This document shows positions 12,865-54,336 of a stretch of DNA of 64,000 bases, in pieces. The position numbers and the translations under genes are program-made. The notes under the pieces were generated by a model that saw nothing but the letters and a program-made list of their open reading frames with translations, did not search any database and was not told the DNA's origin. Source of the stretch: Candidatus Parcubacteria bacterium (GTDB lineage Bacteria > Patescibacteriota > Minisyncoccia > Minisyncoccales > JAGMDC01); contig JAGMAD010000001.1 in assembly GCA_023130975.1 (NCBI GenBank), positions 17,238 to 81,237 of the forward strand, in the 5' to 3' direction. Position 1 is the first letter of the stretch. Every line of letters begins with the position of its first letter.

Positions 12865-12961
12865 CCCCCATACCATAACAAGGATAGGCGAATTCGCAAA
12901 GCGAATTCGCTAACCCGCCAAACCCTTTGGGTTTGGCGGAAATCCTTGTTTGGTGTGGGGG
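12865..12961. mobile_element. GC-rich palindromic MITE-like element, family 1, intergenic copy (97 nt)
   Basis: Termini CCCCCATACCATAA / TTTGGTGTGGGGG. Extended stem ACAAGGA/TCCTTGT. Two inner hairpins (gcgaattcgc x2; ccgccaaaccc-ttt-gggtttggcgg). Flanked by direct tcaa/tcaa. Confidence 0.6.
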
Positions 12962-13010
12962 TCAACCCCGAAACCTTGTCAAGACAGGACAATTTTGATA
13001 ATATGAACTA

Positions 13011-16698: not shown

Positions 16699-16836
16699 GC
16701 CCGAGGCAACCTTGTTCTGAGCTCGTCCTGAGCTCGTCGAAGGACTGCCTCGGGCTTTTGTTTTTCATTGATAAAAACCCAAAAATGAGTTAAATTAAAA
16801 GAATGGAGGAAAATAAAAACAGAATAAAAGATTTAG
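16699..16836 (+). repeat. Duplication copy A: GC terminator hairpin, radC promoter and first 11 radC codons
   Basis: gcccgaggc...gcctcgggcttttgttttt, then attgataaaaacccaaaaatgagttaaattaaaagaATGgaggaaaataaaaacagaataaaagattta. Matches 17523-17671. Confidence 0.85.
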
Positions 16837-16861
16837 CGAAAGTTAAAAAATATTTAAAAAT

Positions 16862-17522: not shown

Positions 17523-17671
17523 TGCCCGAGGCGATTGCCTCGGGCTTTTGTTTTTGATTGCTATTGAGTACCAAAAAAACCTGTCCTGAGCCTGTCGAAG
17601 GAATTGATAAAAACCCAAAAATGAGTTAAATTAAAGTAATGGAGGAAAATAAAAACAGAATAAAGGACTTA
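17523..17671 (+). repeat. Duplication copy B: terminator hairpin plus the functional radC promoter and 5' end
   Basis: TTGATA (17604-17609), 17 nt, TAAATT (17627-17632), 6 nt, ATG 17639. Differs from copy A by two synonymous changes in the 11 shared codons. Confidence 0.85.
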
Positions 17672-18325
17672 CCCAAAGTAGAACGGCCGAGAGAGAAATT
17701 AATTTTGAAAGGGCCCGAAAATTTAAAAGATGAAGAACTTCTGGCAATTTTGCTTCGGACTGGCAGGGAAGGCAAAAATGTTTTAGATTTAGCCAAGCAG
17801 ATTTTGAATAAACATTCAAAAAAGCGTTTTTTGAAGATGAGATACGAGGATTTAATAAAAGTGAAAGGAATAAACGAAGCCAAGGCCTGCACAATTCTCG
17901 CCAGTATGGAATTAGTCAAAAGAGCCTTAAAAATCCAGGATGAAACCTTACCAATTATTAATTCTTCTAAAGATGTAATAGCTCAAGCCGTTTATTTGAG
18001 AGATAGAACTCGCGAACACCTAATGACTATTTATCTCAACGCTAGAAATGAGATGGTTTGGAAAAAACAATCGACATTTATTGGCACTTTAAATACCAAT
18101 TTAGTTCATCCCAGAGAAATTTTTCAAGAAGCTTTAAAACACAATGCCGCCTCAGTAATTTTAGTCCACAATCATCCTTCAGGAGATAGCGAGCCATCCC
18201 AAGATGACTTAGAAATAACAAAGAGAATTATTGAAGCCGGCAAAATAATGGGCATAGATGTTTTAGACCACATAATCATCACCAAAACCAAAGCATTCAG
18301 CTTCAAAGAAAAAAAGTTGATATAA
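17639..18325 (+). CDS. radC: RadC-like JAB/MPN domain protein
   Basis: IKDLPKVERPREKL N-terminus, HhH region, JAMM motif HNHPSGDSEPSQDD. Confidence 0.9.
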   Translation: MEENKNRIKDLPKVERPREKLILKGPENLKDEELLAILLRTGREGKNVLDLAKQILNKHSKKRFLKMRYEDLIKVKGINEAKACTILASMELVKRALKIQDETLPIINSSKDVIAQAVYLRDRTREHLMTIYLNARNEMVWKKQSTFIGTLNTNLVHPREIFQEALKHNAASVILVHNHPSGDSEPSQDDLEITKRIIEAGKIMGIDVLDHIIITKTKAFSFKEKKLI

Positions 18326-26031: not shown

Positions 26032-26727
26032 TTGATGATTTTAGAAAAAATGAACTACCTTGCCCCAAGGCGCAAGGTATCTCTTCGGGCAAGTTCTTTC
26101 GGCGGCTTTCATTCCCGCCGCTTGCGACGGGATATTTTCGCCACCGAAATAAAAAATAATTTATTCTTTTGTTCAGTTATAATAATATTTGTTATTTTCT
26201 TTTTAATTGACCTAATAATAGGAGATTCTCAATTATTTTTAATAATAAATAAAAAAATTGCCAATCCTTATTTGGATTGGATAGTTATTTCTATATTTTA
26301 CCCTTTATTTTCTCTTTTATTTATTGTTCCTTTAATTTGTCTTTTTAAAAAAGAATGGAGAAGAGCAAGTTTGATTGCTTTAATCTCTGGGCCGCTGAGT
26401 TATATTATAGGTGATTTTCTTAAAATTTTAATTGCCAGACCTCGACCATTTGAAGTTCTTTCTGTCAATTTATTAGGTCCTTGGCATACCACTAGTTTTT
26501 CCTTTCCTTCTACTACTACTGCCTTAGTTTTTGGCTTAGCTCTTCCATTTTTGATTTATAAAAATAAGTTTGCAGGTTTGCTTATCCCTATTTCTTTTTT
26601 AGTTGGATTTTCTGTAATTTATACAGGGTTTCACTTTCCCTTAGATGTAATGGCTGGCGCAATTCTTTCCTTAGTGCTTGTACTTTCTCTATCTATTTTT
26701 CTGACGAAGTTTAACATCAAAAAATAA
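26032..26727 (+). CDS. PAP2-family phosphatase (start uncertain)
   Basis: KILIARPRPF, SFPSTTTA, GFHFPLDVMAG PAP2 motifs. The first ~40 codons are the translated family-2 repeat element. Confidence 0.75.
   Translation: MMILEKMNYLAPRRKVSLRASSFGGFHSRRLRRDIFATEIKNNLFFCSVIIIFVIFFLIDLIIGDSQLFLIINKKIANPYLDWIVISIFYPLFSLLFIVPLICLFKKEWRRASLIALISGPLSYIIGDFLKILIARPRPFEVLSVNLLGPWHTTSFSFPSTTTALVFGLALPFLIYKNKFAGLLIPISFLVGFSVIYTGFHFPLDVMAGAILSLVLVLSLSIFLTKFNIKK
26050..26154 (+). repeat. GC-rich hairpin repeat, family 2, copy a (~105 nt)
   Basis: atgaactaccttgcc..cgggcaagttctttcggcggctttcattcccgcc..ccgaaataaaa. Aligns with 31512-31592 on the same strand. Confidence 0.7.
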
Positions 26728-29352: not shown

Positions 29353-30039
29353 TTATTTGACAATTTTCCACTCAATTTTTGATTCTTTATCCGCAAACTC
29401 CAACCATTGGCCATTTTTGTCAATGACATACCACTTTCTTTTTGTGTCTGACCAAACCATTGGGTCGCCTCTATAAAATGGCTTTTTAACAACCTCTTTT
29501 GGCTTTAATCGGTCTAATTCCAACCATTTTTTAAATACTGTTTCAATGGCATAATCCAGATTTCTAGATTTCGCCCATTCAGCGACCGTAGAAATGGCTT
29601 TTTTTGCTTTTTCCATTGAACCAGCAAGTTCTAAAAGCTGCTTTGCCGGCTTGGTAAACCGGGAATAAATAATCTTTCTTTTCTTAGCATTTTGTTTGAG
29701 CTCGCCCAAACTAAGCCCTTTGGTTTGAAAATAATGAGTAACAATCTGACGGATAGCAGTTTCTTGTTTTAATTTCTCATAATATTTAATCTTGCCTTTT
29801 TTCAGATATTCTTCAATTTTATCAGCGATACTTTTCCCCACGCCTTGGATTTCTTTCAAGCCCTTAACATCTCTTTTCTTGTAAATATCAACGATATCCT
29901 CTTTTAAATTTTCCAGAGCCAAAGCGGCTTTATGATAGGCCTGCGGTTTAAAAGACACTCCTTTTATTTTCAACAGTTCTTCTATTTCGTATAATATTTT
30001 AGCGATTTTTTGATTGGTCACTTTATTGATATTTTTCAA
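29353..30039 (-). CDS. Helix-hairpin-helix protein resembling the N-terminal part of family X polymerases
   Basis: NQKIAKILYEIEELLKIKG..FKPQAYHKAALALE...LKEIQGVGKSIADKIEEYL. No palm/NTase domain. Confidence 0.6.
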   Translation of the reverse strand: MKNINKVTNQKIAKILYEIEELLKIKGVSFKPQAYHKAALALENLKEDIVDIYKKRDVKGLKEIQGVGKSIADKIEEYLKKGKIKYYEKLKQETAIRQIVTHYFQTKGLSLGELKQNAKKRKIIYSRFTKPAKQLLELAGSMEKAKKAISTVAEWAKSRNLDYAIETVFKKWLELDRLKPKEVVKKPFYRGDPMVWSDTKRKWYVIDKNGQWLEFADKESKIEWKIVK

Positions 30040-30622
30040 CTTTGAATTTGTAAATTATTATTTTTTCTGTTTGAGGGTTGATATTGGCTTTTTGACAGGC
30101 AATAGAGATTTGTTTTTCTGAAGTATCCACTCCGTCTAAGTCAGGCAAAAGCAGTCCTGATTTAAAATGAGTCCTTGGCGCAGGTTCAAAAATAACATCA
30201 GAACCAGAAGAAAAGGACTGGGATTTTACAAGGATGCCGTATTTTTTCGGATCTAATTCATTTATGCTCTTTATTAATTCTGGTTTATTCAAAATATACA
30301 CAGTATAAGATAGTTCGGGCAACTCCTGTTTCTGAATAGGGGAGAAGCGATAATCTTCAGTGGCCGCAACAATAGCATTATGAATAATTTCCTGGGCAAT
30401 ATTTTCTTTTGTCGGCAAATAAGTGCCAATACATCCACGTAAAACTCGCTTTCGCTCGTCACGTGGCGCGCCCCGCAAATTCTCATCTTTTTCAATAGTC
30501 ACAAATGTGCCAGCTTTTCGGGTCAGAAACTCTTCTGGCAAATTTTTAGACGGAGAAATCGTCTTTCTTTCTTTTATGTAATTTTCCACCGCCTTTTTGG
30601 CAAGTGAGATATATTGATTCAT
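30023..30622 (-). CDS. AMMECR1 domain protein (AmmeMemoRadiSam system protein A)
   Basis: GTFVTI...LRGCIGTY core. Adjacent to the Memo-like and radical SAM partners. Confidence 0.8.
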   Translation of the reverse strand: MNQYISLAKKAVENYIKERKTISPSKNLPEEFLTRKAGTFVTIEKDENLRGAPRDERKRVLRGCIGTYLPTKENIAQEIIHNAIVAATEDYRFSPIQKQELPELSYTVYILNKPELIKSINELDPKKYGILVKSQSFSSGSDVIFEPAPRTHFKSGLLLPDLDGVDTSEKQISIACQKANINPQTEKIIIYKFKVEKYQ

Positions 30623-30731: not shown

Positions 30732-31025
30732 CTATATGTCTTCTAAAGAATATAATCTATAGTTCCTGGAAAGATACCAACGATCTAGCAAAAAGAGAGT
30801 GGTGCCTAAGTAAACGAAAATCGATCCTGTCACATATAAACAAATTGTCAATCCTCTTGTCAATCCTCCAAAATCCAAAGTCCATGCTACAGCTATGAAT
30901 ATCAATCCAGTTACCATGTTAGTTACATGGTATTTTACTCTCTCTCCAATACTCATTTCCATCTTTTTTCCAGTTATCATGCTGGTTACATAATGTTTTA
31001 CTTTCTTTCCAATACTTATTTCCAT
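30732..31025 (-). CDS. Small membrane protein with internal tandem repeat
   Basis: ATG 31025 with SD aggagg. MEISIGKKVKHYVTSMITGKK / MEMSIGERVKYHVTNMVTGLIF duplicated ~21-aa unit, then two TM helices. Tracked N-terminal extension rejected. Confidence 0.5.
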   Translation of the reverse strand: MEISIGKKVKHYVTSMITGKKMEMSIGERVKYHVTNMVTGLIFIAVAWTLDFGGLTRGLTICLYVTGSIFVYLGTTLFLLDRWYLSRNYRLYSLEDI

Positions 31026-31187
31026 CTTTTTATCACCTCCTATTCTGTTTAAAACAATGCTACACGTTACGTTCCGGATAGGATTTGAATCTGCGTCTTC
31101 GGCTCGAGAAGCTAAAATACTAAACTGAACTATCACCACCGGAGCATTATTAAAGATAGCATTTTTTACGATTTGTGTCAAGCGAAA

Positions 31188-31874
31188 TTATCGTAATTTG
31201 AAATTTACGACGAGATAACCGACGCCGAAAGGGTATTCGTATGATAAAATTTCCGGCTGCCAATTTAAACCCGAGGCCTGTAAAATTCCTAAAAGAAAAG
31301 AAAAAGAGCGCAGGCCGCATTCGCCGGCCTCTGGAAAATATTCATCTAACTTCAAAAAATTTTTAATATCTTTTTTCTTTAGATATTCAATCAATGCCTT
31401 GTCAAATTTTGGACCATCAGGATGAAGACCATAAGGACCATCTTCTTTTAAGCAGTGAGACATATCACCAGAAGCGATCAGGGCATATCTCTTTTCTTTT
31501 TCCAATTTATTATGAACTACCCTGCCCTTCAGGGCAGGGTATCCCTCCGGGCAAGTTCTTTCGACGGCTTTCATCCCGCCGCCGAAATAAAACTTTTTTC
31601 CTCGTTGATAATAAAAATCAGGAGTTTTATCAGGAATAAATAATTGCCGGCTTGGAATACGTTGCTTAGGATTTAAGAAATAAAGCGGAACGTTAAAACC
31701 CCAATCAGGATGAGGAGAGGAAATAATAATATTGTTAGGATTAGATTCCTTTAATTTTTTTCCTAAAAACTCCAAATTTTCAATTGTTTTTTTAACTTTC
31801 TCTCTATCCTCTAGCGAGCCAACTTCAGGCAAAAGCAGGGGAGGATGAGGAGAAAAGCAAGCAAAAGAAATCAT
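31188..31874 (-). CDS. Memo/LigB-superfamily protein (AmmeMemoRadiSam system protein B-like)
   Basis: FSPHPPLLLPE, IASGDMSHCL, AGECGLRSF. Located between the AMMECR1 and radical SAM partners. Confidence 0.65.
   Translation of the reverse strand: MISFACFSPHPPLLLPEVGSLEDREKVKKTIENLEFLGKKLKESNPNNIIISSPHPDWGFNVPLYFLNPKQRIPSRQLFIPDKTPDFYYQRGKKFYFGGGMKAVERTCPEGYPALKGRVVHNKLEKEKRYALIASGDMSHCLKEDGPYGLHPDGPKFDKALIEYLKKKDIKNFLKLDEYFPEAGECGLRSFSFLLGILQASGLNWQPEILSYEYPFGVGYLVVNFKLR
31512..31592 (+). repeat. GC-rich hairpin repeat, family 2, copy b (~81 nt) inside the Memo-like gene
   Basis: atgaactaccctgcccttcagggcagggtatccctccgggcaagttctttcgacggctttcatcccgccgccgaaataaaa. Translated antisense as FGGGMKAVERTCPEGYPALKGRVVH. 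Confidence 0.7.
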
Positions 31875-31889
31875 AAAAATCTCTAATTT

Positions 31890-32981
31890 TTAATTTAAAA
31901 TTAAATTTAAATCTTCTTCGCATTTAGCGCATTTGCCGTTTTTGTCAAAACGTTTGATGGTATAGCCGAGCCGCTCAATTGCCAAAGTCCCGCATTTTGG
32001 ACAATAAGTGTTTTCGCTTTCTAAACCCGGCACATTACCAGTATAAACATATTTTAAGCCAGCTTTTTTACCAATTTCAAAAGCCATTTTTAATGTCTCA
32101 ACCGAAGTATCAGGTAAGTGCTGTAATTTCCAAGAAATTGTACCAGAAAATTGAGAAATATGCCAGGGCGTTTCAATACCTAACTCGTTTTTAATAAAAT
32201 TAGCGATATTTTCAAACATTTCTTTAGAATCAGTTAAGGTAGGAATGACTAAAGTTGTTACTTCTAGCCAAATGTTTTTTCCTTTCAAACGCTTTAGAGT
32301 ATCTAAAACTGGCTGTAATAGTCCGCCGCAGTATTTTATGTAAAACTCATCAGAAAAACCTTTTAGGTCAATATTCGCGGCGTCAAGATAAGGAGAAATT
32401 AAATCAAAAAGTTCTTTTGACCAAAATCCATTGCTAACCCAGACATTTTTTATTCCTTGCTTTTTAGCTAATTTCATTGTATCTAAAGCATATTCAGAAA
32501 AAATGGTAGGTGAAGTATAGGTATAAGCAATAGAAGGTAAATTATTCTCTTTGGCAATTTTAACAATTTCTTCTGGCGATAAATCTTCTCCTTCAATCTT
32601 TCCAGTCAATTGAGGCATTTGAGATATATCATAATTTTGGCAATTTGCACATCTAAAATTACATCCTACAGTGGCGATAGATAATGACTGAGTACCGGGT
32701 AAAAAGTGAAATAAAGGTTTTTTTTCAATAGGATCAATATTACAGGCAATAGCTTTGCCATAATTCAGGGCATAAAGTTTTCCATCAATATTTTCTCTCA
32801 CACCGCAAATCCCTCTCTTTCCTTGTTCAATAACACAATAATGAGCGCAATTTCGGCACTGAACAATTTTGTTCTTTAGTTTTTTGTAAAGATATGCTTC
32901 TTTCACCCCCACACCATAATAAGCACCGGCACCTTTGGTGCCAAAAGACGAAGTATGTGTTTGTTTGGTGTGGGGGTTCAT
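31890..32981 (-). CDS. AmmeMemoRadiSam system radical SAM enzyme
   Basis: N-terminal Cys cluster (CRNCAHYC..GICGVR), radical SAM CNFRCANCQN, C-terminal CPKC..CAKC ribbon. Confidence 0.85.
   Translation of the reverse strand: MNPHTKQTHTSSFGTKGAGAYYGVGVKEAYLYKKLKNKIVQCRNCAHYCVIEQGKRGICGVRENIDGKLYALNYGKAIACNIDPIEKKPLFHFLPGTQSLSIATVGCNFRCANCQNYDISQMPQLTGKIEGEDLSPEEIVKIAKENNLPSIAYTYTSPTIFSEYALDTMKLAKKQGIKNVWVSNGFWSKELFDLISPYLDAANIDLKGFSDEFYIKYCGGLLQPVLDTLKRLKGKNIWLEVTTLVIPTLTDSKEMFENIANFIKNELGIETPWHISQFSGTISWKLQHLPDTSVETLKMAFEIGKKAGLKYVYTGNVPGLESENTYCPKCGTLAIERLGYTIKRFDKNGKCAKCEEDLNLILN
32906..32976. mobile_element. Family-1 MITE-like element (71 nt) inserted just after the radical SAM start codon
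   Basis: CCCCCACACCATAA...TTTGGTGTGGGGG, flanked by direct ttca/ttca (32902-32905, 32977-32980). Confidence 0.65.
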
Positions 32982-33503: not shown

Positions 33504-34092
33504 TTATAATAAAACGTCTATCACCACCTTCTCTGACATCTCTTTATACCTATTTCGTATGGTAACTTCGGCCACGAATCAAACGTTTTTTCATTGCTTT
33601 CCGGTACAATACTGATGCCGCTTCTCTGATGTCTCTTGAGAGTCCAAGCGCACAAGCCATTCGGTCTATCTCAGAAAGAGCGAAAATAAGACTCCTTTCA
33701 CTAGTCATAAGTCCACTATCTCTAACTCTACGTCGCATTCTTCGAAAATCATCTCGTCCTTGAAAATCTTTAGGAAGAAGATTACTTAGTCCTTTATCAT
33801 GTATTCTATTAGTCATTGGTGCTCCGACCCTCACTCTCTTTGAGAATTGCTCAGAGTCAAAAGCCCGCCATTCCGGGCCAAGGTCTATGATATTTTCTGC
33901 TATTACCATACCACACTCAGCACAATAAAGTTCGGCGCGTTTGCGATCCAGTATTAAATCTTTAGAGCCGCATTCAGGACACTTTCTTATTCTATTTGGA
34001 CCTTCTATATTTAAGTTTTCATCATTATTATCATTATTCTGGACAAAATTACGTTTCAATCTTTCTTTAGCTTCTACACTCACTTTTATCAT
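33504..34092 (-). pseudogene. Archaeal-type transcription initiation factor B (TFB/TFIIB), internally deleted remnant
   Basis: ORF 33550-34092 encodes the Zn ribbon, B-reader and B-linker up to ..LIRGRS, then a stop. An overlapping shifted frame across that stop reads [23 protein letters not shown], the conserved TFB C-terminus. Confidence 0.7.
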
Positions 34093-42268: not shown

Positions 42269-43816
42269 ATGGAAAAAGTTGATAGATTAAGAAAAAAATA
42301 TCCGAGATTTGTTTATGAAAAATATTTTTATCAAATCTTTAAAAATGATTTAAAGATTTTTTTTGATTTTAGGATAGCTCCTGACATTAGATTTAGACCA
42401 ACAATAATTGTAAAAAATATTGACAAACAAAATTTATCAATGATCAGTGATAAATTATTAGATAATCTTGTTTTTCATTTGGGTTTAATGGAAATTCCCA
42501 GTTATTGGAAAACTACTTGCTCGCCAGAAATTGAAATTAGAGCCGGCTATTTAAATAAAGAACAAATTAAATGGTGGAAAGATTTAATTATCAATGGAAT
42601 GGGCCAATTCTTTTATGAAAATAGGATTGATTTCAGAGAGTCAAGTTTTCTAAAAATTATTTCAAATGAGCAAAAAAGCGGGCGAAGACGGACTTCGCCT
42701 GCTTCGTTCAATTTGGGCGAAGTCCGTCCTCGCTTTGTCTCGCAAAAAAATAGATTTTTAATCCCAATGGGAGATGGCAAGGATTCAATTGTTACTTTAG
42801 AGCTGCTAAAAAGAAAAAAGTTAGAGGTTAATTGTTTTATTGTTAATCCTTTTAAAGAGCATTTTAAGATTTTGAAAATCGCAGGAATTAAAAACCCCGT
42901 AATTGTAGAACGGAAAGTTGATCCAACTTTATTAGCATTGAATCGAAAAGGATTTTTAAACGGACATACGCCGATAACTGCTTTAATTTCCAACTTAGCA
43001 GTTTTTTGCGGAGTTTTATTTGGTTATGGAAACGTAGTAATGTCCTGCGAGAAAAGCGCTAATGAAGGTAATATAAAATACTTGCCCCCACACCATAATG
43101 GAGACATGCCGCTTTCAGCGGCGAAATTAGCAAGGCCAGCCCCCATTTGGTGTGGGAGTAAAGGAAAAATCATTAATCATCAATGGTCAAAAAGTTTTGA
43201 ATTTGAGGAAAAATTCCGATATTATTCTAAGAAATATTTAACAAAAGAAGTAGAATATTTTAGTTTTTTGCGTCCTTTATATGAAATTCAAATAGCAAGA
43301 TTATTCTCTAAGCTTACAAAATATTTTTCGGTTTTCCTTAGTTGTAATGAGGCATATAAAACTGCTTCTGGAACCAAAAAACCAACTGGCAAATGGTGCG
43401 GGAAATGCTCAAAATGCTTGTTTATTTGGACAATTTTATATCCTTTTGTAAAAGAAAAAGAGCTGATTAAAATTTTCAAAAAAAATCTTTTTAAAGATAA
43501 GAATCTAATTCCAATAATGAAAGAACTAATAGGGGATAGTAAATGCAAGCCACTTGAATGTGTGGGCACAAAAAAAGAAAGCTTAATTGCTTTTTACCTA
43601 TCATACAAAAAATCCATAGGTGACACCTATGGCAATTTCTATGGCAATAGTGATAATTTATCGGCTTTGTTGAAATACTTTCAAAATAAAGTTTTACCGA
43701 ATTACTCAAAATTAAAATTAGAAAATGATTCAAAAAGGATATTAAATTCATGGAATAAGCAAAATAATCTTCCTAAAAAATTTGACAAAATTTTACGAAA
43801 AGCATATTATAAATGA
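42269..43816 (+). CDS. PP-loop-like / Cys-cluster protein in the dcw cluster; candidate UDP-MurNAc-L-Ala-L-Glu epimerase (MurL-like)
   Basis: FLIPMGDGKDSIVTLELL resembles an SGGxDS-type ATP pyrophosphatase loop. GKWCGKCSKCLF is a QueC-like Cys cluster. Sits between mraY and murD. The family assignment is an inference. Confidence 0.4.
   Translation: MEKVDRLRKKYPRFVYEKYFYQIFKNDLKIFFDFRIAPDIRFRPTIIVKNIDKQNLSMISDKLLDNLVFHLGLMEIPSYWKTTCSPEIEIRAGYLNKEQIKWWKDLIINGMGQFFYENRIDFRESSFLKIISNEQKSGRRRTSPASFNLGEVRPRFVSQKNRFLIPMGDGKDSIVTLELLKRKKLEVNCFIVNPFKEHFKILKIAGIKNPVIVERKVDPTLLALNRKGFLNGHTPITALISNLAVFCGVLFGYGNVVMSCEKSANEGNIKYLPPHHNGDMPLSAAKLARPAPIWCGSKGKIINHQWSKSFEFEEKFRYYSKKYLTKEVEYFSFLRPLYEIQIARLFSKLTKYFSVFLSCNEAYKTASGTKKPTGKWCGKCSKCLFIWTILYPFVKEKELIKIFKKNLFKDKNLIPIMKELIGDSKCKPLECVGTKKESLIAFYLSYKKSIGDTYGNFYGNSDNLSALLKYFQNKVLPNYSKLKLENDSKRILNSWNKQNNLPKKFDKILRKAYYK
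42678..42743. repeat. GC-rich 66-nt hairpin insert (family 3) inside the MurL-like ORF
   Basis: Arms gcgaagacggacttcgcc (42682-42699) and ggcgaagtccgtcctcgc (42716-42733), 17/18 complementary. Flanked by A runs. Translated as GRRRTSPASFNLGEVRPRFVSQ. Confidence 0.65.
43085..43158. mobile_element. Family-1 MITE-like element (74 nt, degenerate right end) inside the MurL-like ORF
   Basis: CCCCCACACCATAA...ATTTGGTGTGGGAG. Inner hairpin gccgc-tttca-gcggc. Translated as PPHHNGDMPLSAAKLARPAPIWCGS. Confidence 0.55.
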
Positions 43817-51880: not shown

Positions 51881-52555
51881 TCACTTTCCGAAGCGGCGGT
51901 GGTGAAGAAAGTATTCATAAAGGGCTGTATCTAAGTCCTTTTCAGTAAAATCAGGCCAATATTTATCAAAAAAGAAAATTTCAGAATAGGCGGCCTGCCA
52001 GATTAAAAAATTAGAAATCCGTTTTTCCTTGCCAGTTCTGATAATTAAGTCAAGGTCAGCCGTCCAAAGATTTTTGGAAATTACATCTTCATTAATTTTT
52101 TCTAAAGAAATTTTCTTTTTAATTATATTTTTTATTGCCTCAACAATTTCAGCTCTGCCGCCATAACTTAAAGCAATATTCAAAATCATATTTTTGTTAT
52201 TTTTAGTAATTTTTTCAATCCTTCTTATTGCCTTTTGAAGGTCTTTAGATAATCTTTGCTTCTGACCAATAACCACAACCTTAATTCCTTGTTTGTCAAG
52301 GTCTTTAACATCTAAAATGCTCTTAATCAAATACATTAAATAATTTATTTCTTTTTTGGGCCTTTTCCAGTTCTCAGTGGAAAAAACAAATAATGTTAGA
52401 ATTTTTATTCCTTTGTTTTTAGAGGCCTTAATAATATTCTTTACCACTTCTCTGCCCTTTTTATGGCCATCAAAAACAGGCAAATTCTTCTCTTTCGCCC
52501 ATCTTCTATTTCCATCTAAAATAATGCCTAAATGATAAGGTATTTTCTTTTTCAT
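51881..52555 (-). CDS. uppS: Isoprenyl transferase (cis-prenyltransferase, UppS family), paralogue 1
   Basis: HLGIILDGNRRWA, FVFSTENWKRP, IRTGKEKRISNFLIWQAAYSE, RRFG. Confidence 0.9.
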   Translation of the reverse strand: MKKKIPYHLGIILDGNRRWAKEKNLPVFDGHKKGREVVKNIIKASKNKGIKILTLFVFSTENWKRPKKEINYLMYLIKSILDVKDLDKQGIKVVVIGQKQRLSKDLQKAIRRIEKITKNNKNMILNIALSYGGRAEIVEAIKNIIKKKISLEKINEDVISKNLWTADLDLIIRTGKEKRISNFLIWQAAYSEIFFFDKYWPDFTEKDLDTALYEYFLHHRRFGK

Positions 52556-52567
52556 TTAATTAAATAA

Positions 52568-53578
52568 TCAGAATAAAAAATCTCCTTCTATGTTAATTTC
52601 TTTTGGCAGAAGCCAGGGAAAATTGCTTCTAGAGAAATAAACTGTTTTTTTAATTATTTTTGAAAAAATAATTTTTGGCAAGAAAAATTTATTAACTTCC
52701 TTCTTATATTTTATAAAATCTGGAAAATTCTTCAAGAGAATATCAGCTGATATTAAAGACCATACCACTCCCCCGCCGGACCAGGGTTTGGTAAGACCAG
52801 TAGCATCGCCACAAAGAGTGATTTTAGAATTTTTAGGAATTATCGGCACTAATGTTTGGGGAATTATGGCTGCTTTTCTTTTCAGAAGATAAATTTTCTT
52901 TTCTTTTAAAAATCTATCGAAATAATTCTTTGCTTTCTTAAAGTCCTCCATTATCCCATATTCTATATTTTCTCCTCGAGGGATTCTCCAAATAAAACCA
53001 GAATTAGTTGCCCAGGTTTCTAGATAGTTAGAATTATCTTTTTTTTCTAAAAATCCTTGAATAGCCAAGAAAAATCGCGGTTCTGAAAGGTTTAATTCTC
53101 TTCTAATAACAGAATTTGCTCCATCGCAGCCAATAGTTCTATCAACCCCCACACCATAACGAGGACTAACTTCGTTAATTTTGGTGCCTTCAGCACCTTG
53201 TCCTCGTTTGGTGTGGGGGTCAAATTCCTTTGGAAAATCATCTATTTTATTGTTTAAAATAATTTTCGCTCCTGAATTTTGAGCTAGATGGGCCACTAAA
53301 TTATCTAATTTATAATGGCTCATTACGAAAAAACTTTTTTTAAAAATAATCTTTGAAGTTTTTCTTGGAAAGTGAATTAATACTTCTTTGATTTCATTTT
53401 GAATTAATTTCTTGCTTTCTGGAATAAAGTCAAAGATTCTTTCGCTAAAAAGGCCTGAGCAGACTTCTTTGCCTATTTTTCCTTTTTTTTCAAAGACAAT
53501 TACCTCCTCGCCTTTTTGGGAAAGTTTCCAGGCAAGATATAATCCTGTAATACCTGCTCCGACAATAACAATCTTCAT
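52568..53578 (-). CDS. FAD-dependent oxidoreductase, geranylgeranyl reductase family, carrying an in-frame repeat insert
   Basis: KIVIVGAGITGLYLA..EVIVFEKK dinucleotide fold. IGCDGANSVIRR. C-terminal CGDATGLTKPWSGGG. Confidence 0.75.
   Translation of the reverse strand: MKIVIVGAGITGLYLAWKLSQKGEEVIVFEKKGKIGKEVCSGLFSERIFDFIPESKKLIQNEIKEVLIHFPRKTSKIIFKKSFFVMSHYKLDNLVAHLAQNSGAKIILNNKIDDFPKEFDPHTKRGQGAEGTKINEVSPRYGVGVDRTIGCDGANSVIRRELNLSEPRFFLAIQGFLEKKDNSNYLETWATNSGFIWRIPRGENIEYGIMEDFKKAKNYFDRFLKEKKIYLLKRKAAIIPQTLVPIIPKNSKITLCGDATGLTKPWSGGGVVWSLISADILLKNFPDFIKYKKEVNKFFLPKIIFSKIIKKTVYFSRSNFPWLLPKEINIEGDFLF
53146..53219. mobile_element. Family-1 MITE-like element (74 nt) in frame inside the flavoprotein gene
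   Basis: CCCCCACACCATAA...TTTGGTGTGGGGG with inner stem ACGAGGAC/GTCCTCGT. Direct tcaa/tcaa flanks (53142-53145, 53220-53223). Confidence 0.7.
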
Positions 53579-53640: not shown

Positions 53641-54336
53641 TTAAGTACCAAACCTTCTCCAGCGATTACTATATTCTTTAAGAGCTTTATCTAAATCTTT
53701 TTCTGTAAAATCAGGCCATAGTTTTTTTAAAAAAACAAATTCAGAATAAGCAATATGCCAAAGTAGAAAATTAGAAAGCCTTTGTTCTCCACCGGTTCTT
53801 ATAACTAAATCGGGGAAATGATATGTACCGGCACAAAGATGTTCTGTTAGTACATCCTCTGTAACTTTTTCAGCTGGAATTCTTTTCTCAATTATTTTTT
53901 TAACCGATTCTACAATATCCCATTTTCCACTGTAGCTTACTGCCAAATTAATAAAAAAATTTTTGTTATTCATTGTTTTCTCTTCGGCCTCTTCTATAAC
54001 ATTTATTAGAGATTTGGGTAATTTTTCTACACAACCTATAACTTTAATTTTGGTTCCTTCTGCAATAGAGTCTTTCAAAATCTCTTTAATTTTCTCTTCA
54101 AAAAAAGACATTAAGAAATCAACTTCTTCTTTGGGTCGTTTCCAGTTTTCCATTGAAAAACCCCATAGAGTTACCATTTTTACTCCTCTATTTTTGCACC
54201 AATAAGTGAATTTCTTTAGATTATTGTAAGCGGCAGAATATCCTTCGGCTAAAGAAAGATTATTTTTTCTCGCCCATCTTCTATTGCCGTCAGCAATTAT
54301 TGCAATATGGTACGGAATTTTACTGATGTTTTTCAT
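53641..54336 (-). CDS. uppS: Isoprenyl transferase (UppS family), paralogue 2
   Basis: HIAIIADGNRRWA, WGFSMENWKRP, IRTGGEQRLSNFLLWHIAYSE, RRFG. Confidence 0.9.
   Translation of the reverse strand: MKNISKIPYHIAIIADGNRRWARKNNLSLAEGYSAAYNNLKKFTYWCKNRGVKMVTLWGFSMENWKRPKEEVDFLMSFFEEKIKEILKDSIAEGTKIKVIGCVEKLPKSLINVIEEAEEKTMNNKNFFINLAVSYSGKWDIVESVKKIIEKRIPAEKVTEDVLTEHLCAGTYHFPDLVIRTGGEQRLSNFLLWHIAYSEFVFLKKLWPDFTEKDLDKALKEYSNRWRRFGT

What the first reader, a model, noticed from the sequence alone, without database searches (positions are those of the whole stretch)
31512..31592. Family-2 GC-rich repeat read antisense, in frame, inside the Memo-like gene
Seen: an ~81-nt segment (27 codons) is near-identical to 26050-26154 on the same DNA strand. 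It contains the hairpins accctgccc-ttca-gggcagggt and gacgg..cccgcc. The Memo-like gene is on the opposite strand and translates it as FGGGMKAVERTCPEGYPALKGRVVH. Plus-strand phantom ORFs (31394-31639, 31455-31643) read RVSLRASSFDGFHPAAEIK, the same peptide seen at the PAP2 N-terminus.
Inference: this is a nucleotide-level mobile or recombining repeat tolerated inside a coding region in either orientation.
Basis: seen in the sequence. Interest (0 to 1): 0.6.

Follow-up and report, generated by a model that had tools for sequence, protein, structure and literature searches.

The report
Miniature hairpin transposon inside a gene
A 75-base GC-rich DNA parasite, most likely a gene-less relative of IS200/IS605 insertion sequences, has landed scarlessly and in frame inside a Parcubacteria enzyme gene, which now encodes 25 extra amino acids; the family is new but the kind of element is known.

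Summary
Window 31512-31586 is exactly 75 nt (25 codons). It is present in the LigB/Memo-like gene and absent from its closest orthologues. The empty site reads TTTTAT^AATAAA, with no target duplication.

A 99-nt sister copy lies at 26050-26148, in the first codons of the PAP2 gene. A third copy (76 nt) lies about 1.7 kb left of the window on an overlapping contig.

Pattern scans found about 30 distinct members, 57-139 nt long, in Patescibacteria contigs. Their hairpins covary. At least seven members sit inside genes: PurL, PriA, a ThiI-like gene, a radical SAM gene, YdjM, PAP2 and Memo. They occur in either orientation and are always in frame. One 97-nt copy splits an MFS gene.

The anatomy matches IS200/IS605 "peel-and-paste" elements:
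- The ends are asymmetric, with no terminal inverted repeats.
- Two similar subterminal hairpins lie on one strand.
- A native TTTAT flanks the left end.
- TTCAT closes the right end.
- There is no duplication.

So this is a new family of gene-less (PATE-like) IS200/IS605-type elements. No transposase was found in the DNA held. Interest is moderate.

The parts
31512..31586 (-). Copy 2 of the element: 75 nt, with its folding ('top') strand on the window minus strand. It is inserted in frame in the LigB/Memo-like gene and lacks the inner left-end hairpin.
   Evidence: It is a 75-nt gap in the alignment with empty-site loci L089 and L090 and a 25-aa gap in the orthologue alignment. The covariance model scores it 84.5 bits.
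31587..31591 (-). Target motif next to the left end: TTTAT on the top strand (ATAAA on +). These bases are the host's own Phe-Tyr codons, not part of the insert.
   Evidence: The empty site in L089/L090 reads ...CAATTTTAT^AATAAATTA. The same flank occurs at 22-26 of 26 copies per position.
31512..31516 (-). Right-end terminal motif: TTCAT on the top strand, the last 5 nt of the element.
   Evidence: GTTCAT is invariant in the copies examined, but ATGAAC was part of the search pattern. For comparison, ISGst2 has TAM TTTAT and TEM TTCAC.
31518..31541 (-). Right-end subterminal hairpin P1: TACCCTGCCC-TTCA-GGGCAGGGTA.
   Evidence: It appears in the fold. Nine of its 10 pairs show compensatory changes across the family (helix 5).
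31560..31586 (-). Left-end stem P3 (TTCGACGGC / GCCGCCGAA) with a 9-nt loop. In full-length copies the inner hairpin P4 sits in this loop.
   Evidence: The stem appears in the fold. Its A.C mismatch on the plus strand is a G.U pair on the minus strand. It corresponds to helix 1.
31188..31874 (-). Host gene: LigB/Memo-like protein of an AMMECR1 / Memo-like / radical SAM cluster. It is 228 aa with the insert and 203 aa in its orthologues.
   Evidence: Pfam LigB match. P0001 is a 100% match from a Candidatus Parcubacteria MAG, and the orthologues are 203 aa.
26050..26148 (-). Copy 1: full-length 99-nt element in the same DNA orientation as copy 2. It lies in the first codons of the PAP2 ORF, which runs on the opposite strand to the element's top strand.
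   Evidence: The covariance model scores it 98.7 bits. NCBI's PAP2 start is the element's own ATG (P0241, 225 aa). Orthologues start 3-8 residues before the first transmembrane helix.
26149..26153 (-). TTTAT target motif flanking copy 1.
26114..26131 (-). Inner left-end hairpin P4 of copy 1 (CCCGCCGC-TT-GCGACGGG). It is the candidate left-end recognition hairpin. On the top strand it is preceded by AATA(T) and followed by A(A)T.
   Evidence: All three modelled pairs of helix 2 show compensatory changes.
26032..26727 (+). PAP2 phosphatase ORF, whose N-terminal 33-39 residues are read from copy 1.

Best explanation
The segment is a decayed copy of a gene-less miniature transposable element. The element belongs to a previously undescribed family spread through Patescibacteria. 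Its architecture is that of IS200/IS605 single-strand ('peel-and-paste') elements, that is, a PATE-like element.

Read on the window's minus strand, a full copy is:
TTTAT | TTCGGCGGC-GAAAATA-[hairpin CCCCGNCG..CGNCGGGG]-ATGAGA-GCCGCCGAA-AGAACTTGCCC-GAAG-GGGA-[hairpin TACCCCGCCC..GGGCGGGGTA]-GTTCAT |

Shown here:
- The element entered the Memo-like gene between TTTTAT and AATAAA.
- It added exactly 75 nt and duplicated nothing, so the reading frame continues and the protein gains 25 residues.
- Sister copies sit in other genes and between genes. They are always preceded by TTTAT-like sequence on the same strand.

Inferred:
- A Y1 (HUH) TnpA transposase encoded elsewhere binds the two similar hairpins on the folded top strand.
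- It cuts after the flanking TTTAT and after the terminal TTCAT, releases a single-stranded circle, and pastes it 3' of another TTTAT.
- Insertions into genes persist only if their length is a multiple of three and the frame used has no stop codon.
- The Memo copy has lost the inner left-end hairpin through a 24-nt deletion. It is probably immobile and fixed.
For: Insertion and empty site. There is an exact 75-nt gap against L089/L090 with no duplication. The 203-aa orthologues lack the 25 residues. A second case exists at protein level: the ThiI-like protein P0121 has exactly 33 extra residues between EQK and IKL. The ATCAA flank there is therefore host sequence.

The family.
- The genome scan gave 3 true members and the metagenome scan about 26 distinct ones.
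- The model found a third copy beside the window (L093:4868-4948) and a decayed one in L053.
- Structure: 95% of cells are paired, 14 of 24 pairs show double changes, and 0 of 500 shuffles reach the observed values; slid controls pair 34-53%.
- Folding strand: the alifold energy is -34.7 kcal/mol for the minus strand and -24.2 for the plus strand. In the stems, 21 mismatches are G.U on the minus strand and 7 are G.U on the plus strand.

IS200/IS605-type features.
- There are no terminal inverted repeats.
- The one-sided flank on the top strand reads T24 T26 T22 A24 T26 out of 26 copies.
- The terminal motif is TTCAT.
- Both hairpins share the foot CCCCG..CGGGG.
- The 4 nt 5' of each foot (AATA, GATA) fit the IS608 pairing rule with TTAT and TCAT, and 'AT' follows the left hairpin as in IS608.
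- ISGst2 uses TAM TTTAT and TEM TTCAC, and gene-less PATE-like relatives exist. TTAT is the commonest left cleavage motif.

Intragenic hosts were confirmed by Pfam. A 97-nt copy splits an MFS gene, and removing it restores the frame.
Against: - No Y1 transposase or tnpB was found in the window's small ORFs. A tblastn probe over all DNA held also found none. That probe was an IS608 TnpA sequence recalled from memory. No full-length autonomous element with these ends was seen.
- Short variants (57-81 nt) lack either the inner hairpin or the outer stem, so the left-end 'guide' assignment cannot hold for them.
- The foot of the right hairpin extends by two covarying pairs. This shifts the guide register: GGGA instead of GATA still fits 2-3 of 3 pairs.
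- Flank variants (TTGAT, TTAAT, TTTGT) are not matched by changes in the putative guide.
- The conserved core and the GAAC/GTTC stem were part of the search patterns, so their invariance proves nothing.
- Orientation relative to replication could not be tested.
Confidence: 0.7

Rival explanations
1. It is a dispersed structured RNA gene or RNA module, for example an omega-RNA-like guide scaffold used in trans by a TnpB/IscB nuclease, or another small RNA. On this view the selected function lies in the transcript, and the DNA copies are only its carriers.
For: Covariation is strong and the fold has several stems. The G.U bias favours one strand. PATE elements 'often encode omega RNAs'. The top strand of the Memo copy is the mRNA sense strand.
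Against: Rfam has no match at gathering or permissive thresholds, including IS605, HEARO and RAGATH families. Copies lie in both orientations inside ORFs and between genes. No tnpB or iscB was seen in the DNA held. G.T wobbles are equally tolerated in folded single-stranded DNA. This rival adds to the transposon reading rather than replacing it.
Confidence: 0.12
2. It is a classical MITE or Rickettsia-palindromic-element-like repeat. It would be moved by a DDE transposase, or spread by recombination, and would have nothing to do with HUH enzymes.
For: It is small, GC-rich and hairpin-forming, and it sits in frame inside genes, as RPEs do in Rickettsia (my own knowledge: Ogata et al. 2000). The same window holds a genuine inverted-repeat MITE family.
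Against: The ends are not inverted repeats of each other (TTCGGCGGC... against ...GTAGTTCAT). No target duplication is present at two empty sites. The leading AT of ATGAAC stays constant where the other flank is AC or AA, so the 2-nt ambiguity is not a duplication. The conserved flank is on one side only.
Confidence: 0.1
3. It is an intervening sequence removed from the RNA (a mini-intron), so the protein never contains the extra residues.
For: The 97-nt copy in L003 interrupts an MFS gene with a stop codon, and precise removal restores the frame. Candidate phyla radiation rRNA genes are known to carry unusual insertions (my own knowledge).
Against: Copies lie in both orientations relative to host genes. 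Every other intragenic copy is a multiple of three and stop-free in the frame used, which splicing would make unnecessary. At 57-139 nt it is far below group I or II intron sizes. There is no Rfam hit, and many copies are intergenic.
Confidence: 0.03
4. It is an ancestral protein segment, a lineage-specific loop of the Memo-like protein. The nucleotide similarity to the PAP2 region would then be coincidental or due to gene conversion.
For: The ORF is intact and the block is read through.
Against: The block is absent from all 120 listed homologues except the window's own protein. The same DNA occurs in unrelated genes in other frames and on the other strand. Its GC content is 56% in a 33% GC genome.
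Confidence: 0.01

Closest known systems
PATE-like gene-less IS200/IS605 elements and their parents (for example ISGst2 of Geobacillus stearothermophilus; IS608 of Helicobacter pylori)
   Same: The ends are asymmetric and carry subterminal hairpins on one strand. Insertion is scarless, 3' of a 4-5 nt motif that stays outside the element. Here that motif is TTTAT, identical to the ISGst2 TAM. The terminal motif differs from it at one position (TTCAT here, TTCAC in ISGst2). The spacing is similar: 16 nt from the cut to the left hairpin against 19 in IS608, and 6-8 nt from the right hairpin to the cut against 10. 'AT' follows the left hairpin. No protein gene lies inside.
   Different: There is no sequence similarity to those elements. 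The hosts are Patescibacteria. An extra outer stem (P3) closes the left end right at the boundary, and a small conserved middle hairpin is present. No cognate TnpA or TnpB has been identified. Many copies are read through as protein.
Rickettsia palindromic elements (RPE)
   Same: Both are short, hairpin-forming selfish repeats found in frame inside protein-coding genes of a reduced AT-rich genome, and both add peptide segments to otherwise conserved proteins (my own knowledge: Ogata et al. 2000, Science).
   Different: The sequence family and the host phylum are unrelated. RPEs have no defined target motif or known mobilising enzyme. Here the ends and target point to a specific transposition chemistry.
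REP/BIME elements mobilised by RAYT (TnpA-REP)
   Same: Both are GC-rich hairpins thought to be handled as single strands by an HUH Y1 enzyme encoded elsewhere in the genome (abstracts).
   Different: REPs are single 20-40 nt palindromes tagged by a tetranucleotide such as GTAG or CGTC at one end; that the tag is 5' of the hairpin is from my own knowledge. They are extragenic and often paired in inverted orientation. This element is bipartite, 57-139 nt long, carries GTAG only 3' of the hairpin on the folding strand, and occurs inside genes.
Classical bacterial MITEs (for example Correia elements, Coxiella QMITEs, and the 'family 1' element of this window)
   Same: All are small, non-autonomous and multi-copy, and they sometimes lie in frame within ORFs (abstracts).
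   Different: Those have terminal inverted repeats and target-site duplications. This element has neither.

Membership tests
IS200/IS605-type non-autonomous element (PATE-like) | The ends are not inverted repeats of each other. Subterminal imperfect palindromes lie at both ends on the same (top) strand. | tested here: met
   The ends are TTCGGCGGC... and ...GTAGTTCAT. Hairpins P4/P3 and P1 are supported by compensatory changes. The strand bias of wobble pairs is 21 to 7, and the alifold energy is -34.7 against -24.2 kcal/mol.
IS200/IS605-type non-autonomous element (PATE-like) | Insertion occurs 3' of a specific 4-5 nt target that remains outside the element, with no gain or loss of host DNA (no target-site duplication). 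| tested here: met
   The DNA empty site is TTTTAT^AATAAA. A protein-level empty site exists in the ThiI-like gene. TTTAT flanks 22-26 of 26 copies per position, on one side only.
IS200/IS605-type non-autonomous element (PATE-like) | The right end closes with an element-encoded cleavage motif related to the target motif. | tested here: met
   TTCAT is terminal in the copies examined, against the target TTTAT. However, ATGAAC was in the metagenome search pattern. The model-found L053 copy, which is independent of that pattern, has TTTAT there.
IS200/IS605-type non-autonomous element (PATE-like) | Guide tetranucleotides 5' of each hairpin foot pair with the cleavage motifs. | tested here: inconclusive
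   AATA with TTAT and GATA with TCAT satisfy the IS608 rule C1.G2, C2.G1, C4.G4. Against this, the right hairpin foot extends 2 bp, short variants lack the left guide, and flank variants do not covary with the guide.
IS200/IS605-type non-autonomous element (PATE-like) | A Y1 HUH transposase (TnpA) is present in the same genome to act in trans. | tested here: inconclusive
   None was found in the window's small ORFs or by tblastn over about 0.9 Mb of fetched loci. Only about 81 kb of this genome was available, so the whole genome could not be searched.
IS200/IS605-type non-autonomous element (PATE-like) | Insertion is biased to the lagging-strand template. | tested here: inconclusive
   All three copies of this genome share one orientation. 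GC skew follows gene direction, so the replication direction cannot be read from it.
Classical TIR MITE | Terminal inverted repeats and a target-site duplication. | tested here: not met
REP/BIME | A single 20-40 nt extragenic palindrome with a 5' GTAG or CGTC tag. | tested here: not met
   The element is bipartite and 57-139 nt long, it has intragenic copies, and GTAG lies 3' of the hairpin on the folding strand.
Any Rfam RNA family (including ribozymes, IS605-associated motifs and introns) | A covariance-model match. | tested here: not met
   There was no hit at gathering thresholds. In E-value mode the best hits were E = 0.11-0.13 to unrelated small RNAs.

The most novel reading that the evidence does not exclude
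This Patescibacteria family may be a 'coding-compatible' peel-and-paste element. Its modal length of 99 nt (33 codons), its roughly four of six stop-free frames and its scarless excision would let it sit in essential genes (priA, purL, thiI-like) as a reversible in-frame insertion. Its conserved middle module (P2 plus CGAAAGAACUUGCCC) could be an omega-RNA-like scaffold that recruits a TnpB/IscB-type nuclease in trans to re-install excised copies. That would be a miniature guide-RNA transposon living inside open reading frames.
Probability: 0.1. Interest if true: 0.7.

Novelty: new member of a known kind. Interest (0 to 1): 0.42.

Why it matters
The element explains a class of odd GC-rich peptide inserts in conserved proteins of candidate-phyla-radiation bacteria. 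Annotators currently read these as real protein sequence. In PAP2 the inferred insertion even supplies the start codon that NCBI annotated.

The family also gives a defined sequence and structure model for finding such inserts. It predicts a TTTAT-targeting Y1 transposase in these tiny genomes, and possibly a TnpB-type nuclease with a TTTAT TAM.

Because IS200/IS605 excision is scarless, gene interruptions by intact copies could be reversible. This can be tested with population metagenomes.

The kind of element (PATE) and the phenomenon (in-frame selfish repeats) are already known, so the advance is incremental.

Tried and rejected
- **tRNA, tmRNA and Rfam.** The window holds only three ordinary tRNAs. 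Nothing matches at the element, even in permissive mode.
- **Intron or bulge-helix-bulge idea.** The flanks of the Memo copy (UUUAU/AUAAA) are complementary, but the flanks of the other copies are not. Both gene orientations occur. Rejected.
- **TA or AT target duplication.** TA is impossible given the empty site. AT is an alignment ambiguity only, because ATGAAC stays constant where the other flank is AC or AA.
- **Integron attC and REP resemblance.** The motifs do not fit.
- **Transposase hunt.** Pfam scans of 20 window ORFs found none. A tblastn search with an IS608 TnpA sequence recalled from memory found only noise, E > 2. This probe is weak.
- **Replication-strand test by GC skew.** The skew tracks gene orientation. 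Inconclusive.
- **AlphaFold2 model of the Memo-like protein with insert.**
  - The mean pLDDT is 57.6. Residues 96-121 (the insert) score below 50 and are coil.
  - Residues 56-93 also score below 50. The model therefore cannot show that the insert is a surface loop.
- **Enrichment of multiples of three among copies not embedded in ORFs.** 9 of 22 by my tally from the lengths, which is not different from one third. In-frame lengths inside genes therefore reflect survivorship.
- **Covariation between flank variants and the putative left guide.** None seen.

Full report
**Source and setting.**
- The window is 33% GC.
- Its LigB/Memo-like protein is identical to a protein of a Candidatus Parcubacteria metagenome-assembled genome (P0001).
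- The gene at 31188-31874 on the minus strand lies between an AMMECR1 gene and a radical SAM gene.

**Checking the observation.**
- Window 31512-31577 and 26050-26115 are 83% identical on the same strand. The similarity resumes at CCGAAATAAAA after a 24-nt indel.
- A 26-nt core occurs exactly twice in the window and never in 100 shuffles.
- A covariance model scores the two copies 98.7 and 84.5 bits. The next hit in 64 kb, with filters off, scores 16 bits.
Both strands fold better than shuffled sequence, the minus strand more so: z = -4.6 and -5.3 against -3.8 and -2.1.

**The insert is 75 nt and scarless.**
- The twelve closest orthologues include three that are 89-91% identical outside the block. 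They are 203 aa and lack exactly FGGGMKAVERTCPEGYPALKGRVVH.
- The DNA of one such orthologue was fetched (L089 and L090, Minisyncoccales). It reads ...CAATTTTAT^AATAAATTAGAA. The window reads AAGTTTTAT[75 nt]AATAAATTGGAA.
- So the insert is 31512-31586. The following ATAAA (TTTAT in the gene's sense) is the host's own Phe-Tyr codons, and nothing is duplicated.
- A 2-nt 'AT' ambiguity is not a duplication. The AT of ATGAAC is invariant even in copies whose other flank is AC or AA.

**A family across Patescibacteria.**
- A 19-mer scan of one genome per species gave three true members, from a Parcubacteria MAG, a Saccharibacteria MAG and an unclassified MAG. It also gave three chance hits in high-GC genomes.
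- A gapped pattern scan of metagenome contigs gave about 26 distinct true members among 82 hits. The rest were unrelated genes.
- The model then found a decayed second copy in L053.
- It also found a third copy (76 nt) belonging to the window's own organism, on an overlapping contig about 1.7 kb left of the window start (L093:4868-4948).
- That makes three copies in about 81 kb, all in one orientation.
- Sizes run from 57 to 139 nt, with a mode of 99.

**Structure.** On the plus strand the consensus reads:

ATGAAC-[P1 TACCCCGCCC..GGGCGGGGTA]-TCCC-UUCG-GGG-CAAGTTCTTTCG-[P3 GCGGC..GCCGC, enclosing an optional P4 ATCCCCGNCG..CGNCGGGGTAT]-CGAA

- The host flank ATAAA follows the consensus.
- On a model-based alignment of 28 distinct copies, 95% of cells pair. 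Fourteen of 24 pairs show changes on both sides, and no shuffle in 500 reaches the observed values. Slid controls pair only 34-53%.
- P1 (9 of 10 pairs) and P4 (3 of 3 pairs) carry most of the compensatory changes.
- The GAAC/GTTC stem and the core never vary. Both were in my search patterns, so this says nothing.
- The folding strand is the window's minus strand. The alifold energy is -34.7 against -24.2 kcal/mol. Of the stem mismatches, 21 are G.U on the minus strand and 7 are G.U on the plus strand. Some of these are shared by descent.
- Rfam has no match at any threshold.

**Genomic contexts.**
- At least seven copies lie inside genes and are read through:

| Host gene | Locus | Insert length | Strand read as sense |
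|---|---|---|---|
| Memo-like | window copy 2 | 75 nt | top |
| PAP2 N-terminus | window copy 1 | 99 nt | bottom |
| PurL | L001 | 57 nt | bottom |
| PriA | L012/L054 | 135 nt | bottom |
| YdjM-like | L015 | 99 nt | bottom |
| ThiI-like | L033/L070 | 99 nt | bottom |
| Radical SAM/SPASM | L042 | 99 nt | bottom |

- These contexts rest.
- For the ThiI-like protein, the orthologues show an insertion of exactly 33 residues between EQK and IKL. The ATCAA flank there is therefore host sequence, and again nothing is duplicated.
- For PAP2, NCBI's annotated start is the element's own ATG. Orthologues begin 3-8 residues before the first membrane helix. A pre-insertion N-terminus MMILEK|IKNNLFF fits them.
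- One 97-nt copy (L003) splits an MFS transporter gene into two ORFs, and deleting it restores the frame.
- The remaining copies are intergenic or at gene ends.
- Among copies not embedded in ORFs, multiples of three are not enriched: 9 of 22, from the lengths. In-frame lengths inside genes therefore reflect purifying selection, helped by a modal length of 33 codons and about four of six frames free of stops.

**Mechanism.** Read on the top (minus) strand, a full copy is:

TTTAT | TTCGGCGGC GAAAATA [P4] AT GAGA GCCGCCGAA AGAACTTGCCC GAAG GGGA [P1] GTTCAT |

- The upstream flank is T24 T26 T22 A24 T26 of 26 copies at positions -5 to -1. In both cases where an empty site could be compared (one TTTAT, one TTGAT), that flank is host DNA. 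The downstream flank is merely T-rich.
- This is the signature of IS200/IS605 single-strand transposition as described for IS608:
  - It acts on the top strand only.
  - It inserts 3' of a tetranucleotide that is not part of the element, without gain or loss of DNA.
  - The left cleavage site lies 19 nt 5' of the left hairpin.
  - The right cleavage site lies inside the element, 10 nt 3' of the right hairpin.
  - Four-nucleotide guides sit 5' of each hairpin foot (PMC3201880).
- Here the corresponding distances are 16 nt and 6-8 nt.
- Both hairpins share the foot CCCCG..CGGGG, and 'AT' follows the left hairpin as in IS608.
- AATA with TTAT and GATA with TCAT satisfy the IS608 pairing pattern C1.G2, C2.G1, C4.G4.
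- Geobacillus ISGst2 uses the same target motif, TTTAT, and a terminal motif TTCAC. It has gene-less PATE-like relatives mobilised in trans (PMC10055086). TTAT is the commonest left cleavage motif in a survey of such elements (PMC9956272).
- I therefore read the family as PATE-like IS200/IS605-type elements moved by a Y1 TnpA encoded elsewhere.

**Caveats.**
- No TnpA or TnpB was found in the DNA available.
- The guide assignment is only suggestive. The right hairpin foot extends by two covarying pairs. Short variants lack the left guide. Flank variants are not matched by guide changes.
- The replication-strand bias could not be tested.

**The Memo copy itself.**
- Compared with copy 1 it lacks 24 nt, comprising the inner left hairpin (P4). 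The third copy also lacks P4, but with different deletion end points.
- Hairpin loss therefore looks recurrent, and these copies are probably immobile fossils. This is an inference.
- A structure prediction was too weak to place the 25 residues on the fold.

**Comparison and novelty.**
- In how it works, the element is closest to PATEs of the IS200/IS605 family.
- In its effect on proteins, it is closest to the Rickettsia palindromic elements.
- It is not a TIR MITE, because it lacks inverted ends and a target duplication. It is not a REP. It is not in Rfam.
- It is a new sequence family in a phylum where, as far as two full-text searches show, such elements have not been described. The kind of element is known.

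**Verdict.**
- The mechanism is assigned with about 0.7 confidence.
- Interest is moderate.

Noticed in passing
window 12867-12965, 32905-32979, 43086-43157, 53146-53222: A second, unrelated GC-rich repeat ('family 1') with true terminal inverted repeats ACCCCCACACCATAA / TTTGGTGTGGGGGT and a variable hairpin-rich middle. The copy at 32905-32979 supplies the start codon and about 25 N-terminal residues of the radical SAM gene. That gene's L089 orthologue lacks this N-terminal block (299 aa against 363 aa overall, part of the difference being C-terminal).
   Followed up: partly
window 30431-30494 (AMMECR1 gene 30023-30622, minus strand): The AMMECR1 protein carries about 12 extra GC-rich-coded residues (..NLRGAPRDERKRV LRGCIG..) that its L089 orthologue lacks. 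They contain a CCACGT...ACGTGG inverted repeat and a repeated LRG. All three genes of the AMMECR1 / Memo-like / radical SAM cluster therefore carry a different small GC-rich insert.
   Followed up: partly
Proteins P0025, P0099, P0089, P0073, P0022 (Memo-like orthologues); P0122, P0130, P0150, P0187, P0195 (ThiI-like orthologues): Other lineages carry independent inserts rich in Ala, Pro, Gly and Arg at other positions of the same proteins. These include a recurrent ..SPKGEGG.. block after GRHF in the ThiI-like family. In-frame GC-rich inserts appear widespread in Patescibacteria proteins.
   Followed up: no
window 26039-26049 and L093 4858-4868: Copy 1 and the third copy share the same 11 nt beyond the right end (TTTTAGAAAAA before ATGAAC; TTTTTCTAAAA on the top strand). 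In copy 1 this is followed by a TCAT. It could be chance, or co-mobilised flank from use of an alternative downstream end motif.
   Followed up: no
window 33550-34092 (minus strand); L089 7944-9053: A TFIIB-like protein (TFIIB zinc ribbon plus cyclin-like repeat, by Pfam) is encoded in these bacterial genomes. It is 369 aa in L089. The window has only the equivalent of residues 15-194, so the gene looks truncated.
   Followed up: partly
window 30906-31031 (ORF 30732-31181, minus strand): A tandem 63-nt duplication (86% identical) lies inside a 149-aa ORF with no Pfam match, located between the AMMECR1 and Memo-like genes. L089 has an unrelated 274-aa ORF on the other strand at that position.
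   Followed up: no
window 16767-16843 and 17603-17679; 1465-1528 and 2470-2533: Two pairs of 64-77 nt direct repeats, 91-92% identical. The first pair lies just upstream of a NYN-domain gene and a RadC gene, and may be shared 5' regions or promoters. The second pair lies at or near the ends of neighbouring ORFs.
   Followed up: no
window 51881-52555 and 53641-54336 (minus strand): Two paralogous undecaprenyl-diphosphate-synthase-like genes (about 75% identical DNA) flank an FAD-oxidoreductase gene. A family-1 repeat copy lies inside that oxidoreductase ORF.
   Followed up: no
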